A stretch of DNA of 64,000 bases, from IMG/VR virus record IMGVR_UViG_3300032304_000757; one strand, 5' to 3'. Positions 2,345-52,154 of the stretch are shown here, in pieces. Position 1 is the first letter of the stretch. Each line of letters starts with the position of its first letter. The position numbers and the translations under genes are program-made. The notes beneath the pieces are model-generated. The model was not told the DNA's origin. It did not search any database and saw only the letters and a list, made by a program, of their open reading frames with translations. This DNA is from an uncultured virus (IMG/VR IMGVR_UViG_3300032304_000757) (lineage: Duplodnaviria; Heunggongvirae; Uroviricota; Caudoviricetes).

Positions 2345-2420
2345 CGCGGGATGGAGAAGGTGGTATCTCGGAAGTCTCATAAGCTTCAGATCGTCGGTTC
2401 GACTCCGACTCCCGCAACCA
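2345..2420 (+). tRNA. tRNA-Met(CAT), initiator-like
   Basis: C1xA72 mismatch, A11-U24 pair, anticodon CAT, ACCA end. Confidence 0.9.
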
Positions 2421-30132: not shown

Positions 30133-31177
30133 TTTGATCTCTCGGTTTAGCAAAGTCTGTGTTAACTCCGCATGTTCTGGCACAGGTAATCAACTTGTTC
30201 GTGGTCCAATATGTGTCCCATGCTGATTGATATTCATTGCTTTCTATGATATCTTTTACAGACCTAGTAAGTGCGTTGATATTACCTAGACTGTTTACTA
30301 GTTCGTGATGTTGTCGAAGCATCTCTGTTCTAACTTCTAGTGCGTCGTCTGGATTTATATAACTGTAAGGAACACTAGCCAACCAACAGCAAGGCAACAC
30401 TTCACAGTATGCGTCAATATAAATTTCTTTTTCGTGTTTTGATTTACAACTTATAATAGACGTTGAAACTATCTCTTTGTAAGCAGATATAACCGCTTTA
30501 TCAATAAACTTTAAAGGAACATCAGTGGCAGGTTCAATATAGTGTGTTGTATTTCCTTTTCGATCTACAACTTTAACTTGAGGTTCTAAAATAAATCTGC
30601 TGGAATTTTTTAACACAAAGTTATCAAACCCTAAGTCCCCTGCCATTTTTTTAGCTGCTTCTACTTGATGTTCATTATGTTTAAATTTGATGAACACCCA
30701 TTCGGCTATCCCGCCAGCACTGATAAATGCTTTAGCGTTTCCAATGATGTCATCAAACTTTGTTCCTACTCGATATAGGTGATGTGTATCTGCCAACCCA
30801 TCTAAAGCAAACACTACCCGATGTTGCTTAGGCAACGCATGAGCAAGATGGGCCCACCATTCGGTGTTTCTTGCGCCGCCGTTGGTATGGATTGCTACCA
30901 TAGTATTAGGAGCAACCTCTGTACTGTACTGACACATTTCAATTAGGTCGTTGTTTAACATCGGGTCACCAAAGTTTCCACAAAAGTAATAACTATCTAA
31001 CTGATTTAATACCTCGGGAGTCATTATTTGTTTAAATTCATCCAATGACCAATTACGTATTTTAATCAACGGATTGTCTAGACCGCCGTTTATATTCCGA
31101 TTACACATAGGACAACTTGCCTGACAGTTGTTTGATATTTCTAGATGAATGGATTTAAGTTCCGTAAATTTAAACAT
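30122..31177 (-). CDS. radical SAM/SPASM protein
   Basis: CQASCPMC, GNFGDP, C...PCC...CARTC. Confidence 0.92.
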   Translation of the reverse strand: MFKFTELKSIHLEISNNCQASCPMCNRNINGGLDNPLIKIRNWSLDEFKQIMTPEVLNQLDSYYFCGNFGDPMLNNDLIEMCQYSTEVAPNTMVAIHTNGGARNTEWWAHLAHALPKQHRVVFALDGLADTHHLYRVGTKFDDIIGNAKAFISAGGIAEWVFIKFKHNEHQVEAAKKMAGDLGFDNFVLKNSSRFILEPQVKVVDRKGNTTHYIEPATDVPLKFIDKAVISAYKEIVSTSIISCKSKHEKEIYIDAYCEVLPCCWLASVPYSYINPDDALEVRTEMLRQHHELVNSLGNINALTRSVKDIIESNEYQSAWDTYWTTNKLITCARTCGVNTDFAKPRDQIVK

Positions 31178-32162
31178 TGCGTATCTGTTGTTTTGGTATC
31201 TTGCTATCTGCCGAACTAACACAGCTAGGTGTTATACATTGCTTCGGTTCATTGAATAAATTAAACCCGCCGACTATTGTTCCTAATGATTGATCGTGAC
31301 AGCTATAACTTCTTTTTACTTCATCACCTCGTATTATAATACTTTGATATCCCGAATTACAATTCCATCCTTGAAATTTATTAAATCCGTAGGCATTGAA
31401 TCTTTCAGCTTGGTCAAACAGATATTCAGTGTTATCTTGATCGTACAAGGCTATTTGATAGACCGCATCACCTCGAGACTGTTGTGGAAAGCCTGTCTGC
31501 ATCAGATGTATCATTTCTTCAGTGTATCCGTCTACTACATAACTAGCTGTTGGATCACTTTGTGGCTTGAGTGTTACATTGATACCACGCTTGTAAAAAC
31601 GTTCCATGCGTTCATACAGTTCGTAAAACTTTTCTGGCACCATTACTTGATTGATTGTAACGTGTACTAGCTCATATTGTAACTGTAGACACTTGTCTCC
31701 AAATTCCTGCTCCTTAGCAAACTCATCATGGAATGATGCTGTAATACTTCTACGTTGTAACAATGCTGTGTTAGCACACCAAGTGTTCCACCACTTGCTA
31801 CCTGGCGACAAATTTGTAGTCATGTGTATGCTTTGGTATGTGCTTTCTGTTTCGTCTAGGTGTTTTACCAAATCAGTTAACTGTTTGTAAGCAGTTGGTT
31901 CACCGCCACTGAAGCTCCAATGAAATTCGTTGAATCCATTTTGTCGAGCCTGCCGTTTGATTTCATCTATGGTATTGGTATATACTGTTAAAGGCTGATG
32001 ATCTATCTTGTCCGATCTAGCATATGGCCAACAATAGCTACAGTTATAATTACAGAAGCGGCCTAAAATCCAACTTGTTGAAAACAACGGACGATCTAAC
32101 ATAGTTCGTTGTCCGAATTTAATTATTTTTTGAAAAGGGATGTTTTGAAAATTAGTATTCAT
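31170..32162 (-). CDS. radical SAM protein with C-terminal Cys cluster
   Basis: CNYNCSYC, SGGEPT, CNSG...SC...C...CVSSAD. Confidence 0.92.
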   Translation of the reverse strand: MNTNFQNIPFQKIIKFGQRTMLDRPLFSTSWILGRFCNYNCSYCWPYARSDKIDHQPLTVYTNTIDEIKRQARQNGFNEFHWSFSGGEPTAYKQLTDLVKHLDETESTYQSIHMTTNLSPGSKWWNTWCANTALLQRRSITASFHDEFAKEQEFGDKCLQLQYELVHVTINQVMVPEKFYELYERMERFYKRGINVTLKPQSDPTASYVVDGYTEEMIHLMQTGFPQQSRGDAVYQIALYDQDNTEYLFDQAERFNAYGFNKFQGWNCNSGYQSIIIRGDEVKRSYSCHDQSLGTIVGGFNLFNEPKQCITPSCVSSADSKIPKQQIRNV

Positions 32163-32190: not shown

Positions 32191-32219
32191 TTGCTATCTG
32201 CTAAACTAGAGTATATACT
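32191..32219 (+). promoter_or_regulatory. sigma70-type promoter for the tRNA-like RNA
   Basis: TTGCTA-17 nt-TATACT; the RNA starts 7 nt after the -10. Confidence 0.65.
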
Positions 32220-32225
32220 AATAAC

Positions 32226-32335
32226 GTGGTCGTGAGCAAATTGGCAAAGCTCCCGCCGGACTCACAGTACGGAATGGGGACGGGGCGTAGACGTAGTCGT
32301 AGCCTTTGCAGGTTCGGATCCTGCCGACCACACCA
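32226..32335 (+). tRNA. aberrant 110-nt tRNA-like RNA
   Basis: Acceptor GTGGTCG/CGACCAC plus ACCA, D-arm, T-arm GCAGG-TTCGGAT-CCTGC; expanded anticodon and variable regions. Confidence 0.8.
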
Positions 32336-32377: not shown

Positions 32378-32575
32378 ATGTCAAACACAGTAGAACAAAT
32401 CAAAGAGCATTTCGATGCGTTTCTAGCAGAAGATGCTAAGTTTACAGGCGGTAACTCAGCAGCAGGCACTCGTGCTCGCAAGGCATTGGCCGAACTTGCT
32501 AAAGCAATCAAAGTTCGCCGAAACGAAATTACAGCAGAGAAAAACGCTCGCAAAGAAGCCAAAGCCAAAGCATAA
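32378..32575 (+). CDS. histone H1-like Hc1-family protein
   Basis: KF..GNSAAGTRARKAL.EL.K..K..R. Confidence 0.85.
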   Translation: MSNTVEQIKEHFDAFLAEDAKFTGGNSAAGTRARKALAELAKAIKVRRNEITAEKNARKEAKAKA

Positions 32576-33078: not shown

Positions 33079-33620
33079 TTAAAGTTTGGGACGATTTAAT
33101 TCCTAAGTATCTTCAAGATTACTTTGAGTTAATTACTCTAGGAGTTAACGGTGAGGAGTTTGTTCATCCCACGGTTGACTTTAGATGTAAGTATGAATCA
33201 ACGGCAGCGGAAGAAGAGTTAACCCACCCTCCGTTGTCGTTTGTTCACATACTAAAATCTAACACACAAGTTTCTAACCATCTAGACAACTTTAGCATGG
33301 TTGCCCAAGCAGCCTGTGCGGATAGTGGTCTAGTGCTTAAAGATGTTGTGATTGCTAGGATATACATCACAGTGCCGTATGAGACAACGCTCACACACTA
33401 CGCACCGCATGTTGATTATCCTGGCAAGCACACAGTGGTCATTTACTACGTTAATGATGCCGATGGCCCAACAGTGTTTTTTGATAAGAACAATAATATT
33501 GTAAAATCTGTAGAACCTAAAAAAGGCAGAGTAGTAATGTTTGATGGTGAAATGCTACACGGGGGAGGAATTCCAAAGAAAGGCCCTCGCTGTATAGTTA
33601 ATTTTGATCTTTGGACTTAA
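33075..33620 (+). CDS. Fe(II)/2OG oxygenase
   Basis: PHVD..IYYVNDADG.T..PKKGR..FDG..HGG..R. Confidence 0.85.
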   Translation: MIKVWDDLIPKYLQDYFELITLGVNGEEFVHPTVDFRCKYESTAAEEELTHPPLSFVHILKSNTQVSNHLDNFSMVAQAACADSGLVLKDVVIARIYITVPYETTLTHYAPHVDYPGKHTVVIYYVNDADGPTVFFDKNNNIVKSVEPKKGRVVMFDGEMLHGGGIPKKGPRCIVNFDLWT

Positions 33621-33631
33621 AGGAGAATAAT

Positions 33632-34327
33632 ATGTTTGGTGTAAATTATACAGGTGGCGGAGTAATGAGTTACCGCAGTGCTAGTGAAATTAATTCAGCA
33701 ATGGGCCGTGTTTACGGACATATGAGCCTTGCTGTCGTTGTGTCAATGTTGGTCAGCTACTTTGTGGGCTCTAGTTCAGAGTTGTTGGCATTCTTTTTTA
33801 CAGGTGTATTAAAGTGGATTGTAATTTTTGCTCCGTTAGCGGCTATCTTTGGCATCGGCTACGTGCTAGGCAATAATCCTAGCAAGGGTGTAGCACAGTT
33901 ATGCCTACATGGGTTTGCGGCATTGATGGGACTAAGTTTTTCCATGATCTTTGCTGTGTTCACTATGGGCAGTATTGTGTCAGCATTTATGGGTGCGGCA
34001 ATCTTGTTTGGTACTATGAGCTTTTACGGTTACTTTACCAAACGTAGTTTGGAGAGCATGGGACAGTTCATGTTTATTGGATTAATTGCTATTGTGATTG
34101 CCAGCATCGTTAACATCTTTATTGGTAGTACTGTTATGGCAACAGTTATTAGTGCGTTAGCGATCATTATCTTCTTGGGTCTTACTGCTTATGATACACA
34201 GCGTATTCGTGAAGCAGTCAGTGTTGACACTGATCCGGCTGTGGAAGTAACTAGTGCTTTGACACTATATATGGACTTTATCAACTTGTTCTTAAACTTG
34301 TTACAGTTGTTCGGCGATCGCAAGTGA
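33632..34327 (+). CDS. Bax inhibitor-1/YccA family membrane protein
   Basis: Multiple TM segments, TAYDTQRI, ALTLYMDFINLF; AGGAG RBS. Confidence 0.93.
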   Translation: MFGVNYTGGGVMSYRSASEINSAMGRVYGHMSLAVVVSMLVSYFVGSSSELLAFFFTGVLKWIVIFAPLAAIFGIGYVLGNNPSKGVAQLCLHGFAALMGLSFSMIFAVFTMGSIVSAFMGAAILFGTMSFYGYFTKRSLESMGQFMFIGLIAIVIASIVNIFIGSTVMATVISALAIIIFLGLTAYDTQRIREAVSVDTDPAVEVTSALTLYMDFINLFLNLLQLFGDRK

Positions 34328-49871: not shown

Positions 49872-50147
49872 ATGAATACAATTACACGTGAACAATTATC
49901 CGATCTACTACACACCGGTGAGTGCGTTGTAGAATTTACCAAAGTTAACGGCGAAGTGCGTACAATGCCTTGTACACTCGATCCACAGATCGTTCCACCT
50001 GCTCCTGAACCAAAAGTTCTAGCAGAAGGAGAAGTTCTAAAAATTAAGAAACATAATCCAGACGTAATGAGCGTTTGGTGTTTAGACAAAAAGGAATGGC
50101 GTTCCTTCCGTATCGCCAATGTTATTTCTGCGAAAGTTAAAGAATGA
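49872..50147 (+). CDS. WYL_2/SH3-fold phage protein
   Basis: VEFTKVNGEVRTMPCTL...WRSFR. Confidence 0.8.
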   Translation: MNTITREQLSDLLHTGECVVEFTKVNGEVRTMPCTLDPQIVPPAPEPKVLAEGEVLKIKKHNPDVMSVWCLDKKEWRSFRIANVISAKVKE

Positions 50148-51166
50148 TCAAACGCATAGGCTTTGCCTGTAAGTGGATTGACGGTCCTAGCCAAATTGAT
50201 GGCATAAAACAAAAGGATAACTGTAAACAATATAACACAGGTAGTACCACTGTAGCATGGTTAAATAGACAGACTAGAGATGTTGCGGAACAAAAACTAT
50301 GGGATCTGATGGCAGGTAACATAGAAGCGGTACGTAAACTTGTTACTCTGGTAGGAGAACAAGATGAAAGTCTTAGAATGGTACGACTCAGTAGCGATAT
50401 CCTTCCTGTCTACACTGAGCCAACTTGGGGCGGGTATTGGCGGAATCCCGACGTCAGAGCCTATTGCGAAAGAGAATTTAAACGAGTCGGAGATATTGCT
50501 CGTGAGAAAGACGTTCGGTTATCTTTTCATCCTGGCCAGTTTACTGTGTTGGCTAGCGATAATCCAGATATTGTAAACAGATCAATAGAGGAGTTTGAAT
50601 ATCATGTGGACATGGCTCGTTGGATGGGGTATGGCAAAGAGTTTCAGGACTTTAAGATTAATGTACATATCGCAGGTAGACAAGGTCCAGCCGGTATCCG
50701 TAGTGCTTTGGCACGGATGACCCCCGAAGCAAGAAATACCCTTACAATCGAAAACGACGAAATGACATGGGGCATTGAAGACAGCATTGAGCTAGTCAAC
50801 GACTGTGCCTTAGTCTTAGACATACATCACCATTGGATTAAAACTGGAGAATACATTGAACCTACTGACGATCGTGTTAAAATGGTTATTGATAGTTGGC
50901 GTGGTCAGCGTCCTGTTATACACTATAGTCTATCACGGGAAGACTGTCTTATTGGCCATCCCCAACACATCCGCCCCGATCTTTGGCCGCTATTAGAAAG
51001 CGGACATAAAAAAGCAAAACTCAGAGCACATTCAAATTTTTACTGGAATACAGCATCAAATGAATGGGCACTGAGTTTTAGAGATCAATTCGATATCATG
51101 TGCGAAAGCAAGGCTAAAAATCTAGCATCGTTCGCACTTTACGAACAAGCCAATCAGATCACTTAG
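50144..51166 (+). CDS. uvsE: UV-damage endonuclease
   Basis: RIGFAC, RLSSD, SFHPGQF, IENDE, LDIHHH, HS, ESKAK. Confidence 0.93.
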   Translation: MIKRIGFACKWIDGPSQIDGIKQKDNCKQYNTGSTTVAWLNRQTRDVAEQKLWDLMAGNIEAVRKLVTLVGEQDESLRMVRLSSDILPVYTEPTWGGYWRNPDVRAYCEREFKRVGDIAREKDVRLSFHPGQFTVLASDNPDIVNRSIEEFEYHVDMARWMGYGKEFQDFKINVHIAGRQGPAGIRSALARMTPEARNTLTIENDEMTWGIEDSIELVNDCALVLDIHHHWIKTGEYIEPTDDRVKMVIDSWRGQRPVIHYSLSREDCLIGHPQHIRPDLWPLLESGHKKAKLRAHSNFYWNTASNEWALSFRDQFDIMCESKAKNLASFALYEQANQIT

Positions 51167-51401
51167 CTTTCGGTTTACGACTTGATTTCTTTCCAGCTGC
51201 TGCTTTTTTAGGAGCAGCTTTTTTTGCTGGTGCTCGTTTGGCTTTGGCCACTGCCGCTGCCTTGTTTTCAGCAGTGACTTCTGCTGCTGTCGTCTCGACT
51301 GCAGGCTGAACAACTTCAACTGGTGGAGTTTCTACCTTGTAGGGAACTTCAACAGATTCCGCCGGCTTGCTGCCAAAAAGTTTTTTGATTAATCCTAGCA
51401 T
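51159..51401 (-). CDS. small protein with Ala/Lys-rich (H1-like) tail
   Basis: AGGAG RBS, TATAAATA upstream, PAKKAAPKKAAA. Confidence 0.8.
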   Translation of the reverse strand: MLGLIKKLFGSKPAESVEVPYKVETPPVEVVQPAVETTAAEVTAENKAAAVAKAKRAPAKKAAPKKAAAGKKSSRKPKAK

Positions 51402-51457
51402 ATTAAAATCTCCTTGTGGGTTATTTATATGGTAAATATCATGAAGGATATGTAAAA

Positions 51458-51847
51458 ATGGCTTATTCAGACAAAGTTATTGATCACTATGAAAATCCAC
51501 GCAACGTAGGTAGCTTTGCTAAAGACGAGGACGGAGTAGGTACCGGCATGGTTGGTGCTCCTGCTTGTGGCGATGTAATGAAACTACAAATAAAGGTAGA
51601 CGAAAATGGCATCATCCAGGATGCGAAGTTTAAAACGTACGGCTGTGGCTCAGCGATCGCGAGCTCGAGTTTGGTTACTGAATGGCTCAAAGGAAAAACT
51701 CTTGACGAAGCCGGAACAATTAAAAACAAAGAAATAGCCGAAGAACTAGCCTTACCTCCAGTAAAGATACATTGCTCAATCTTAGCTGAAGATGCTATTA
51801 AAGCCGCAGTAGCTGACTATAAATCCAAACATGATATCAATAACTGA
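51458..51847 (+). CDS. iscU: Fe-S cluster scaffold IscU
   Basis: MAYSDKVIDHYENPRNVG, APACGD, YGCGSA, LPPVKIHC. Confidence 0.97.
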   Translation: MAYSDKVIDHYENPRNVGSFAKDEDGVGTGMVGAPACGDVMKLQIKVDENGIIQDAKFKTYGCGSAIASSSLVTEWLKGKTLDEAGTIKNKEIAEELALPPVKIHCSILAEDAIKAAVADYKSKHDINN

Positions 51848-52154
51848 AATTGCTGCCTGTAAAGTAAAAGAATCCCTTGTTCGTCGAGGCAAAGGATTTG
51901 GAATCAAAGTAGGTGTAAAAACCACTGGGTGTTCAGGACTAGCGTACACTATAGAGTATGTAGACAATCCTAACGAACACTGTATGGAACATCACGATGT
52001 AAACGGAGTAAGAATTTACATAGACCCAAAACATAGACCGTATTTGTACGGCACAACTATGGATTGGACTAAAAAAGGTTTAAACGAAGGATTCGATTTT
52101 ATTAACCCCAACGAAAAAGATCGTTGTGGGTGTGGTGAATCTTTTCGAGTATAG
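51831..52154 (+). CDS. iscA: A-type Fe-S carrier IscA
   Basis: TGCSGLAY, CGCGESF. Confidence 0.95.
   Translation: MISITEIAACKVKESLVRRGKGFGIKVGVKTTGCSGLAYTIEYVDNPNEHCMEHHDVNGVRIYIDPKHRPYLYGTTMDWTKKGLNEGFDFINPNEKDRCGCGESFRV

What the first reader, a model, noticed from the sequence alone, without database searches (positions are those of the whole stretch)
32226..32335. tRNA-like RNA with intact acceptor, D and T arms but rebuilt anticodon and variable regions, next to the enzyme cluster
Seen: 110 nt with a perfect 7-bp acceptor, A discriminator and encoded CCA, a D-loop GG and a canonical T-arm. The anticodon hairpin (CCGGA-CTCACAG-TACGG, one G.A mismatch, nominal CAC) sits on an extra CCC/GGG helix with bulges. 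The variable arm is GGGC-GTA-GAC-GTA-GTC-GTA-GCCT. It has its own promoter, lies far from the tRNA cluster and is divergent from the last radical-SAM operon. Known: A73 plus a long variable arm is the tRNA-Leu pattern, and bacterial LeuRS largely ignores the anticodon. Inference: it could be charged but would fit the ribosome poorly. It may be an aminoacyl donor for biosynthesis, a decoy for anticodon nucleases or tRNA sensors, or a substrate of the neighbouring enzymes.
Basis: partly seen in the sequence, partly recalled or inferred. Interest (0 to 1): 0.78.

Follow-up and report, generated by a model that had tools for sequence, protein, structure and literature searches.

The report
Anticodon-less leucine-tRNA mimic, jumbo phages
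This giant lake-water phage, like many uncultured relatives, keeps one gene for an RNA built like a leucine transfer RNA but with no working codon-reading arm; it is probably loaded with leucine and kept out of protein synthesis, for a purpose nobody has tested.

Summary
The RNA at 32226-32335 (+) is real and is not a decaying tRNA. I found 237 distinct family members in uncultured, mostly aquatic T4-like jumbo phages, one per record in 20 of 21 records searched. Rfam has no family for it. Helices covary (23 of 31 pairs; 0 of 500 shuffles reach the observed score). A73 (237/237), U48 (237/237) and A20a (237/237) never vary; these are E. coli LeuRS identity elements. The anticodon arm varies from 9 to 34 nt, is often a plain tetraloop hairpin, and is canonical in 0 of 155. 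A sigma70-type promoter puts the start on nucleotide 1 (140/153, against 5/341 ordinary tRNAs), so the RNA is probably leaderless. The weak EF-Tu pair A51-U63 is fixed (235/237). Best reading: a host-charged, non-decoding Leu-tRNA mimic that acts in trans; what consumes it is unknown. The radical-SAM neighbours are incidental (5 of 44 loci). Closest precedent: phage T5 RNA1, a tRNA-like stable RNA of unknown function, which is not a family member. Expression and charging are not shown. This scan reported what looks like the same family earlier on another genome (e1-6119966).

The parts
32226..32335 (+). tRNA-Leu-like RNA gene without a functional anticodon arm (110 nt)
   Evidence: family model R1 scores it 114 bits against 30 for the next window hit (the window is a training row, so this score is by construction)
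32191..32219 (+). sigma70-type promoter (-35, 17-nt spacer, -10) ending 6 nt before G1; predicted start site is G1
   Evidence: same geometry in 140 of 153 members against 5 of 341 ordinary tRNAs and in 77 of 81 new metagenome members
32226..32232 (+). acceptor stem 5' strand (pairs with 32325-32331)
   Evidence: 6 of 7 pairs with double changes, 100% of cells paired (acceptor pairing was also a selection criterion)
32233..32251 (+). U8, and Leu-type D arm with A14, A15, G18G19, A20a
32252..32278 (+). rebuilt anticodon arm: C26-G44 3-bp helix, internal loop, 5-bp hairpin with 7-nt loop (32256-32272)
   Evidence: arm length 9-34 nt across the family
32279..32307 (+). G45 linker, variable arm (5 bp, 3x3 loop, 3 bp, C-NUA-G triloop), U48
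   Evidence: length 28.5 +/- 2.0 nt; C-N-UAG in 114 of 155
32308..32324 (+). T arm with A51-U63 (32310/32322) and non-canonical G58 (32317)
32325..32335 (+). acceptor 3' strand, A73 (32332), encoded CCA (32333-32335)
32378..32575 (+). Hc1 histone-like protein gene downstream; no terminator-like site between (subclade synteny, not part of the family definition)
31170..32162 (-). divergent radical-SAM gene (incidental neighbour)

Best explanation
The phage makes, from a host-type promoter and so probably early, a tRNA-Leu-derived RNA that starts at nucleotide 1 and needs no RNase P step. It is trimmed at the encoded CCA and folds a tRNA core and elbow. Host LeuRS charges it with leucine. It cannot decode, and a weak T-stem lowers its capture by EF-Tu, so it forms a pool of activated leucine outside the ribosome, like the non-proteinogenic tRNA-Gly of staphylococci. 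The conserved variable arm is probably the handle for a partner protein. Shown: the gene, its fold, selection on it, promoter geometry, loss of the anticodon. Inferred: expression, 5' end, 3' trimming, leucylation (about 0.7), weaker EF-Tu binding. Last step, my guess (about 0.25): it gives leucine to a non-ribosomal transferase, such as a host N-degron transferase feeding the phage ClpS, or an unrecognised phage enzyme.
For: A73 and U48 in 110 of 110 members found by 5'/D-arm patterns alone; A20a in 63 of 63 found by the V/T-arm pattern. A73 and U48 in 82 of 82 new metagenome members. These match the E. coli LeuRS set (A73, A15-U48, G18G19, A20a; anticodon and variable arms dispensable) in passages of PMC9976931. 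Canonical anticodon arm in 0 of 155; arm 9-34 nt, terminal loops mostly 3-5 nt. A51-U63 in 153 of 155 (108 of 110 in the unbiased subset) against 0 of 29 ordinary Leu tRNAs and 59 of 313 tRNAs of the same loci. Predicted EF-Tu binding is -9.4 kcal/mol against -9.9 to -10.4 for Leu classes (PMC3239215 section 9). The same pair marks S. aureus non-proteinogenic tRNA-Gly (passages). Promoter geometry; a purine at position 1 in 236 of 237. One copy per record. ClpS in 17 of 23 RNA-bearing, mostly partial records.
Against: No expression, end or charging data. The EF-Tu effect is only 0.5-1 kcal/mol, and -9.4 is normal for Arg, Ile, Trp and Val tRNAs. This copy has G58, whereas U54:A58 matters for E. 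coli leucylation. The host is unknown, so E. coli rules may not hold. Of the E. coli L/F-transferase determinants (abstract of PMC4105747), G3:C70 is in 158 of 237 and C72 in 157, but A4:U69 in 38 and C68 in 3. ClpS is also in 5 of 5 cultured relatives that lack the family. No phage transferase was found: Leu_Phe_trans 0 of 21; ATE_C, Acetyltransf_6 and CDPS each 0 of 5. Several invariant bases (U8, A14, G18, G19) are general tRNA-fold bases, and D-arm patterns were used in the scans and in the membership filter.
Confidence: 0.55

Rival explanations
1. Decoy or sponge. The RNA soaks up host defence enzymes or sensors that read the acceptor end or elbow of class II tRNAs (CCA-modifying toxins, aminoacyl-tRNA acetyltransferases, non-anticodon tRNases). 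Its rebuilt anticodon arm makes it immune to anticodon nucleases. Charging is part of the disguise.
For: Immediate maturity from a host-type promoter; conserved top half with a freely varying anticodon arm; no phage consumer enzyme found. In one subclass of 40 RNAs a C-Y-Y-A-Y-A-G loop is kept across 20 different stems, as a CAU-specific bait would be. toxSAS and MenT toxins act on CCA ends (search listing only).
Against: The acceptor stems are diverse (41 distinct), and there is no link to defence or counter-defence genes among 127 neighbour ORFs. Ordinary phage tRNA-Leu genes in the same loci could already serve.
Confidence: 0.22
2. Cis element. The tRNA-like fold is the 5' leader of an early transcript and stabilises it or directs processing of the downstream mRNA.
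For: It begins at the predicted start site, no terminator-like site follows in the window, and a same-strand ORF often starts within about 75 nt. RNA contigs in two metatranscriptomes covered Hc1 only, which does not decide the point.
Against: The downstream genes are unrelated across loci, and 14 of 84 loci carry 9 or more tRNAs around it. A73 never varies and CCA is encoded in 144 of 155, which matters only for a free 3' end.
Confidence: 0.1
3. It is a working translational adaptor of an unusual kind: it decodes CAU/CAC-type anticodons, or enters stalled ribosomes with a helper protein as tmRNA does with SmpB.
For: In 15 of 155 members the distal hairpin would form a canonical CAU arm if shifted by a short deletion. 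It has a 7/5 acceptor branch and CCA.
Against: The arm ranges from 9 to 34 nt. ARAGORN calls only 21 distinct members, with scattered anticodons. This copy gives no canonical arm under any single deletion.
Confidence: 0.07
4. A decaying tRNA pseudogene, a spliced precursor, or a substrate of the neighbouring radical-SAM cluster.
For: Single-sequence z-score -0.87; G58 and the CAC variant in this copy; it lies next to a radical-SAM gene here.
Against: Covariation; single copy with a conserved promoter; 22 of 155 become canonical after some deletion against 5-11 in shuffles, with no shared cut site; RtcB in 0 of 5 records; radical-SAM neighbour in 5 of 44 loci.
Confidence: 0.04

Closest known systems
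Phage T5 RNA1 (GenBank AY543070: 'tRNA-like stable RNA with unknown functions'); also T5 RNA2 and RNA3, and T4 species 1 and 2 RNAs
   Same: T5 RNA1 has a Leu-type D loop, an expanded arm in the anticodon position, a long variable arm and an A51-U63 T stem. So phage tRNA-like RNAs without a normal anticodon are a known kind.
   Different: RNA1 is 144 nt, lies inside a tRNA cluster and has no encoded CCA in the annotated span. It scores 22 bits with R1 and RNA2 17; T4 rnaC scores 15 and rnaD about 1. Family members score 72-118.
Class II tRNA-Leu (Rfam RF00005), e.g. T4 tRNA-Leu(UAA)
   Same: A73, A15-U48, G18G19, A20a, long variable arm, 7/5 branch; best ordinary-tRNA scores to R1 are 30-53 bits, with Leu tRNAs on top where alignments or annotation were seen.
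   Different: No 5-bp/7-nt anticodon arm; Watson-Crick C26-G44 plus a G45 linker; variable arm with an internal loop; A51-U63; leaderless promoter; A10-U25, and a bulged D stem in 194 of 237.
Staphylococcus aureus non-proteinogenic tRNA-Gly (FmhB/FemAB donors)
   Same: A51-U63 and lower predicted EF-Tu affinity; a donor role outside the ribosome is the model for the best explanation (passages).
   Different: Those keep a normal cloverleaf and lose G18G19. Their acceptor enzymes are known; none is identified here.
Allo-tRNAs and irregular tRNA polycistrons (Mukai et al., PMC5389517)
   Same: Irregular tRNAs from metagenomes, some charged but not used in translation (passages).
   Different: They have 8/4 or 9/3 branches and anticodons; this family is 7/5 and has no anticodon.
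Bacterial and phage Y RNAs (YrlA) with Ro60/Rsr
   Same: Non-decoding tRNA mimicry (search listing).
   Different: No Rfam Y RNA match and TROVE in 0 of 21 records. The permuted tRNA-like domain of YrlA is recalled, not from a call.

Membership tests
canonical tRNA-Leu (RF00005) | 7-bp acceptor, 5-bp T stem, NCCA end | tested here: met
canonical tRNA-Leu (RF00005) | E. coli LeuRS identity set A73, A15-U48, G18G19, A20a | tested here: met
   G58 in this copy departs from U54:A58
canonical tRNA-Leu (RF00005) | 5-bp anticodon stem at 27-43 with a 7-nt loop and a Leu anticodon | tested here: not met
   0 of 155; no Rfam or ARAGORN call for this copy
canonical tRNA-Leu (RF00005) | leucylation and decoding | not testable with these tools
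   needs biochemistry
T5/T4 tRNA-like stable RNAs (T5 RNA1, RNA2; T4 species 1, 2) | sequence and structure homology to the named RNAs | tested here: not met
   R1 scores 22, 17, 15 and about 1 bits against 72-118 for members
T5/T4 tRNA-like stable RNAs (T5 RNA1, RNA2; T4 species 1, 2) | tRNA-like shell with the anticodon arm replaced (works-like criterion) | tested here: met
   T5 RNA1 anatomy against the family
T5/T4 tRNA-like stable RNAs (T5 RNA1, RNA2; T4 species 1, 2) | accumulates as a stable RNA in infection | tested here: inconclusive
   only assembled contigs were available
allo-tRNA / selC* tRNA | 8/4 or 9/3 acceptor branch | tested here: not met
   7/5 in the alignment (the parsers looked for 7/5); definition
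Y RNA (YrlA) | Rfam Y RNA match and co-encoded Ro60/TROVE | tested here: not met
tmRNA | G3.U70 Ala identity and an internal tag ORF (criteria recalled) | tested here: not met
   no tmRNA call; G3.U70 in 11 of 237; length 90-119 nt
intron-containing tRNA | a common excision yields a canonical tRNA | tested here: not met
preferred substrate of E. coli L/F-transferase | G3:C70 plus C72, A4:U69, C68 | tested here: inconclusive
   this copy has G3:C70 and C72 but not A4:U69 or C68; family counts 158, 157, 38 and 3 of 237; host enzyme unknown

The most novel reading that the evidence does not exclude
These jumbo phages turned tRNA-Leu into a dedicated, leaderless, anticodon-nuclease-proof carrier of activated leucine that host LeuRS charges and EF-Tu largely passes by. 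It feeds ribosome-independent leucylation, for example N-degron tagging of host proteins for the phage's ClpS, or an unrecognised transferase that reads the conserved variable arm. It would be a viral non-proteinogenic aminoacyl-RNA, and T5 RNA1 and the look-alikes in Serratia phage BF and Xanthomonas phage XbC2 would be independent versions of the same design.
Probability: 0.25. Interest if true: 0.88.

Novelty: new variant of a known kind. Interest (0 to 1): 0.66.

Why it matters
T4 and T5 carry annotated tRNA-like stable RNAs of unknown function. This family gives a large comparative set (237 distinct sequences) that shows what selection keeps: LeuRS identity, the elbow, a weak EF-Tu pair, the variable-arm shape and an exact start at nucleotide 1. 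It also shows what selection drops: the anticodon. That makes the question of what phage tRNA-like RNAs do testable with purified enzymes and with look-alikes in cultured phages. It bears on how phages survive tRNA-targeting immunity and on non-ribosomal uses of aminoacyl-RNA. It also matters for annotation: ARAGORN labelled 21 distinct members as Pro, Arg, His, Gln, Ser or unknown tRNAs and did not call this copy.

Tried and rejected
No whole genome is held for the window, so gene-content tests used other RNA-bearing IMG/VR records. blastn of this RNA and of one homolog against cultured phages found no member. R1 over 12 records from that collection gave 53 bits at best. The one genome-contig scan (type-A D arm only) gave 4 matches, none with a tRNA shell; type-B was not scanned there, so absence from bacteria is not shown. 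RNAalifold's register U25-A46 pairs equally well on the raw alignment. I prefer C26-G44 because of CUC/GAG, CUA/UAG, CUG/CAG and perfect short hairpins (27-43 paired in 155 of 155 when C26 is forced to pair), but the other register is not excluded as an alternative conformer. Reads: all four runs laid were contigs. The two recorded RNA runs covered only Hc1, and the run that covered the RNA is a guessed RNA library whose contigs include promoter DNA, so nothing follows about expression either way. Partner searches were blank: tRNA-synt_1 0 of 5 (78), CCA-adding 0 of 5 (101), RtcB 0 of 5 (102), TROVE 0 of 21 (76). Lant_dehydr_N 0 of 5 is uninformative because the control did not ring (99). The MCD-like upstream gene is in 6 of 44 loci and 5 of 10 records (40, 93), so it is not a universal partner. 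ClpS does not separate carriers from non-carriers (103). Mutual-information analysis of 237 sequences showed only known helices and clade signal, no clear tertiary pair (126). The idea that the 3' arm is a displaced Leu(UAG) anticodon arm was considered: C-N-UAG is in 114 of 155, but the loop is a closed triloop with a variable first base (80). Ten paper searches found no description of this family. The library lacks most subscription journals, and I did not look at supplements, such as large ncRNA motif tables, where it could be listed.

Full report
Observation. The 110-nt element at 32226-32335 (+) is as described. One error: its T loop has G at position 58. ARAGORN finds 5 other tRNAs in the window but not this one, and Rfam gives nothing at the gathering score or by E-value. 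Its single-sequence fold is not unusual (z = -0.87). A promoter-like site ends 6 nt before G1, and no terminator-like site follows. An Hc1 histone-like gene lies 42 nt downstream and a radical-SAM gene is divergent upstream. The window also holds a T4 gp9/10-like domain.

Family. These collapsed to 163 distinct sequences. I dropped 8 as not family-like (ordinary Leu/Gln/Trp-type tRNAs and one other long element), leaving 155 distinct RNAs in 279 loci, some fetched more than once. A metagenome scan gave 120 matches and 82 further distinct members, 237 in all. A sixth viral scan gave 35 hits of 83-117 bits among 71 loci; these were not added to the counts. A model built from 86 of the sequences finds exactly one hit of 72-118 bits in 20 of 21 records; the blank record came from a D-arm pattern match with no tRNA shell. 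Three of five large records searched carry a T4-type capsid gene. The nearest cultured capsid homologs of one of them, at 63-67% identity, are in Phosso, Vibrio 2.275.O, PA5oct-like and BF/GAP32-like phages. No member was found in 12 records of the INPHARED collection or by blastn. The runs that hold this stretch are labelled freshwater, lake or unspecified metagenome; only 2 of 21 hold half or more of the words.

Structure under selection. On the unfitted alignment of 86 sequences, 92% of cells pair and 23 of 31 pairs show changes on both sides; none of 500 shuffles reaches this, and slid registers pair 29-48%. Relatedness inflates such tests, but the changes occur in every helix except the two-pair D stem as counted. 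The anatomy is: 7-bp acceptor; a D stem in two forms (43 with C12-G23; 194 with a bulge and G12-C23); a Watson-Crick C26-G44 helix; a free arm; a G45 linker; a variable arm of 5 bp, a 3x3 loop, 3 bp and a C-NUA-G triloop; U48; T arm. The arm in the anticodon position is 9-34 nt (sd 5.7) while G45-U48 is 28.5 nt (sd 2.0). Many members have only a 4-6 bp hairpin with a UUCG or CUUG loop there. None of 155 has canonical anticodon geometry. Single deletions make 22 canonical against 5-11 in shuffles, with no common cut site; 15 of the 22 are one subclass whose distal hairpin carries CAU. In that subclass of 40, to which this copy belongs, the 7-nt loop stays C-Y-Y-A-Y-A-G across 20 different stems. 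That loop may have a role of its own, which I cannot explain.

Leucine identity. Passages of PMC9976931 give the E. coli LeuRS set as A73, A15-U48, G18G19, A20a and the D/T-loop contacts, with the anticodon and variable arms dispensable. To limit pattern bias I counted features outside each search pattern: A73 and U48 in 110 of 110 members from 5'/D-arm scans, A20a in 63 of 63 from the V/T-arm scan, and A73 and U48 in 82 of 82 new metagenome members. Among ordinary tRNAs, Leu species score best against the model in the window, T4, T5 and RsoM2USA. No phage class I synthetase domain was found in 5 near-complete records, so the host enzyme would do the charging. Charging is inferred, not shown, and this copy's G58 may reduce it.

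First, a -10 box lies 5-7 nt before G1 in 143 of 153 members, with a -35 box in 140, against 40 and 5 of 341 ordinary tRNAs in the same loci; the metagenome set gives 77 of 81. Position 1 is a purine in 236 of 237. The RNA therefore probably starts at its own first base and needs no RNase P step. The relative PA5oct uses the host polymerase (passages), which fits such promoters. Second, A51-U63 is in 235 of 237, against 0 of 29 ordinary Leu tRNAs of these loci. With the values of PMC3239215 (passages and section 9) the family averages -9.4 kcal/mol for EF-Tu against -9.9 to -10.4 for Leu classes. The same pair marks S. aureus non-proteinogenic tRNA-Gly (passages). The shift is modest and lies within the range of other tRNA classes.

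Context. I scanned 127 ORFs next to 45 of 84 loci. A radical-SAM gene is upstream in 5 of 44, an MCD-like gene in 6 of 44, and Hc1 is downstream in at least 7 of 45 (my ORF picker missed some). The rest are varied enzymes, and 14 of 84 loci lie among 9 or more tRNAs. So the enzyme cluster is incidental. None of the 10 neighbours tested against NCBIfam passed a cut-off for a tRNA-modifying family; two are N_Twi_rSAM proteins. Searches for a consumer or partner were blank (99 uninformative). ClpS is in 17 of 23 RNA-bearing records (one further record in 104 is not shown to carry the RNA and is left out), but also in 5 of 5 cultured relatives without the family. The family matches the E. coli L/F-transferase determinants only in part (abstract of PMC4105747).

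Mechanism. Most likely (0.55): an early, leaderless RNA, trimmed to CCA, leucylated by host LeuRS, excluded from decoding and acting in trans as activated leucine outside the ribosome, with the variable arm as a handle for a partner. The final use as a leucine donor is a guess (about 0.25). Rivals: decoy for acceptor-end or elbow-reading defence enzymes (0.22), cis-acting mRNA leader (0.10), unusual ribosomal adaptor (0.07), decay, splicing or radical-SAM substrate (0.04). No expression data bear on this.

Comparison and novelty. T5 RNA1, annotated as a tRNA-like stable RNA of unknown function, has the same general design but scores 22 bits, is longer and lacks an encoded CCA. T4 species 1 and 2 RNAs score 15 and about 1. 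Allo-tRNAs differ in branch geometry (passages; review passages). Y RNA and tmRNA tests fail. Rfam found no specific family for 11 homolog loci and 9 look-alike loci; one member came close to the tRNA cut-off at 28.4 bits, and another passed it at 30 bits. Ten paper searches found no description; passages of PMC4810235 and PMC5852040 did not describe it. The library is incomplete and supplements were not read. Verdict: a real, apparently undescribed family, a new variant of phage tRNA-like RNAs. Interest 0.66.

Noticed in passing
L368 (NC_041917 289744-289855) and L369 (OP292654 292152-292264): Cultured jumbo phages Serratia BF and Xanthomonas XbC2 carry a different 112-113 nt tRNA-like RNA with a Leu-type D arm, A73, an anticodon arm rebuilt around a 7x7 internal loop and a structured variable arm; it is unannotated in BF. 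A tractable look-alike.
   Followed up: partly
L370 (MG592671 210989-211123 and 211223-211358); L371 (NC_041917 294918-295036): Further tRNA-shelled RNAs of 119-136 nt with large inserts in Vibrio phage 2.275.O and in BF.
   Followed up: no
L696 306-432 (Pectobacterium phage My1): Unannotated T5 RNA1-like element whose variable-arm end and T arm closely match this family's.
   Followed up: partly
L509, L527, L529, L534, L535, L566, L517, L544, L524, L545, L546: Several other phage tRNA-like classes with Leu-type D arms and odd anticodon or acceptor arms, some with G73 or a bulged acceptor; R1 scores at most 53 bits.
   Followed up: no
L252 276-382 and 508-632; L258 4221-4320 and 4418-4524; L270 8333-8451; L166 478-600; L219 1425-1543: Long tRNA-shelled elements (100-125 nt) in phage tRNA regions, some repeated with the same acceptor stem.
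   Followed up: no
L128, L209, L101, L180, and Leu tRNAs listed: Phage tRNA-Leu genes with short variable regions, and tRNA-Gln genes with a Leu-type D arm.
   Followed up: no
window 7894-32162: Enzyme island: nine radical-SAM genes, a QueC-like ORF, a tryptophan halogenase-like ORF, a desaturase, AdoMet decarboxylase, hydroxylases and a methyltransferase.
   Followed up: no
window 33611-34327; 50144-52154: Bax inhibitor-1 family membrane protein; UvdE endonuclease; NifU/IscU and IscA-type Fe-S assembly genes.
   Followed up: no
L571 944-3197; L013 105-1174: Phage ClpS sits beside ORFs that look like Hsp20, a DnaK C-terminal part and a heme oxygenase (labels recalled from the sequences). L013 has PTH2 and an RF-1-domain gene just downstream of the RNA.
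   Followed up: no
window 2345-2420: The window's tRNA with CAU anticodon has a C1/A72 mismatch, as initiator tRNAs do (criterion recalled).
   Followed up: no
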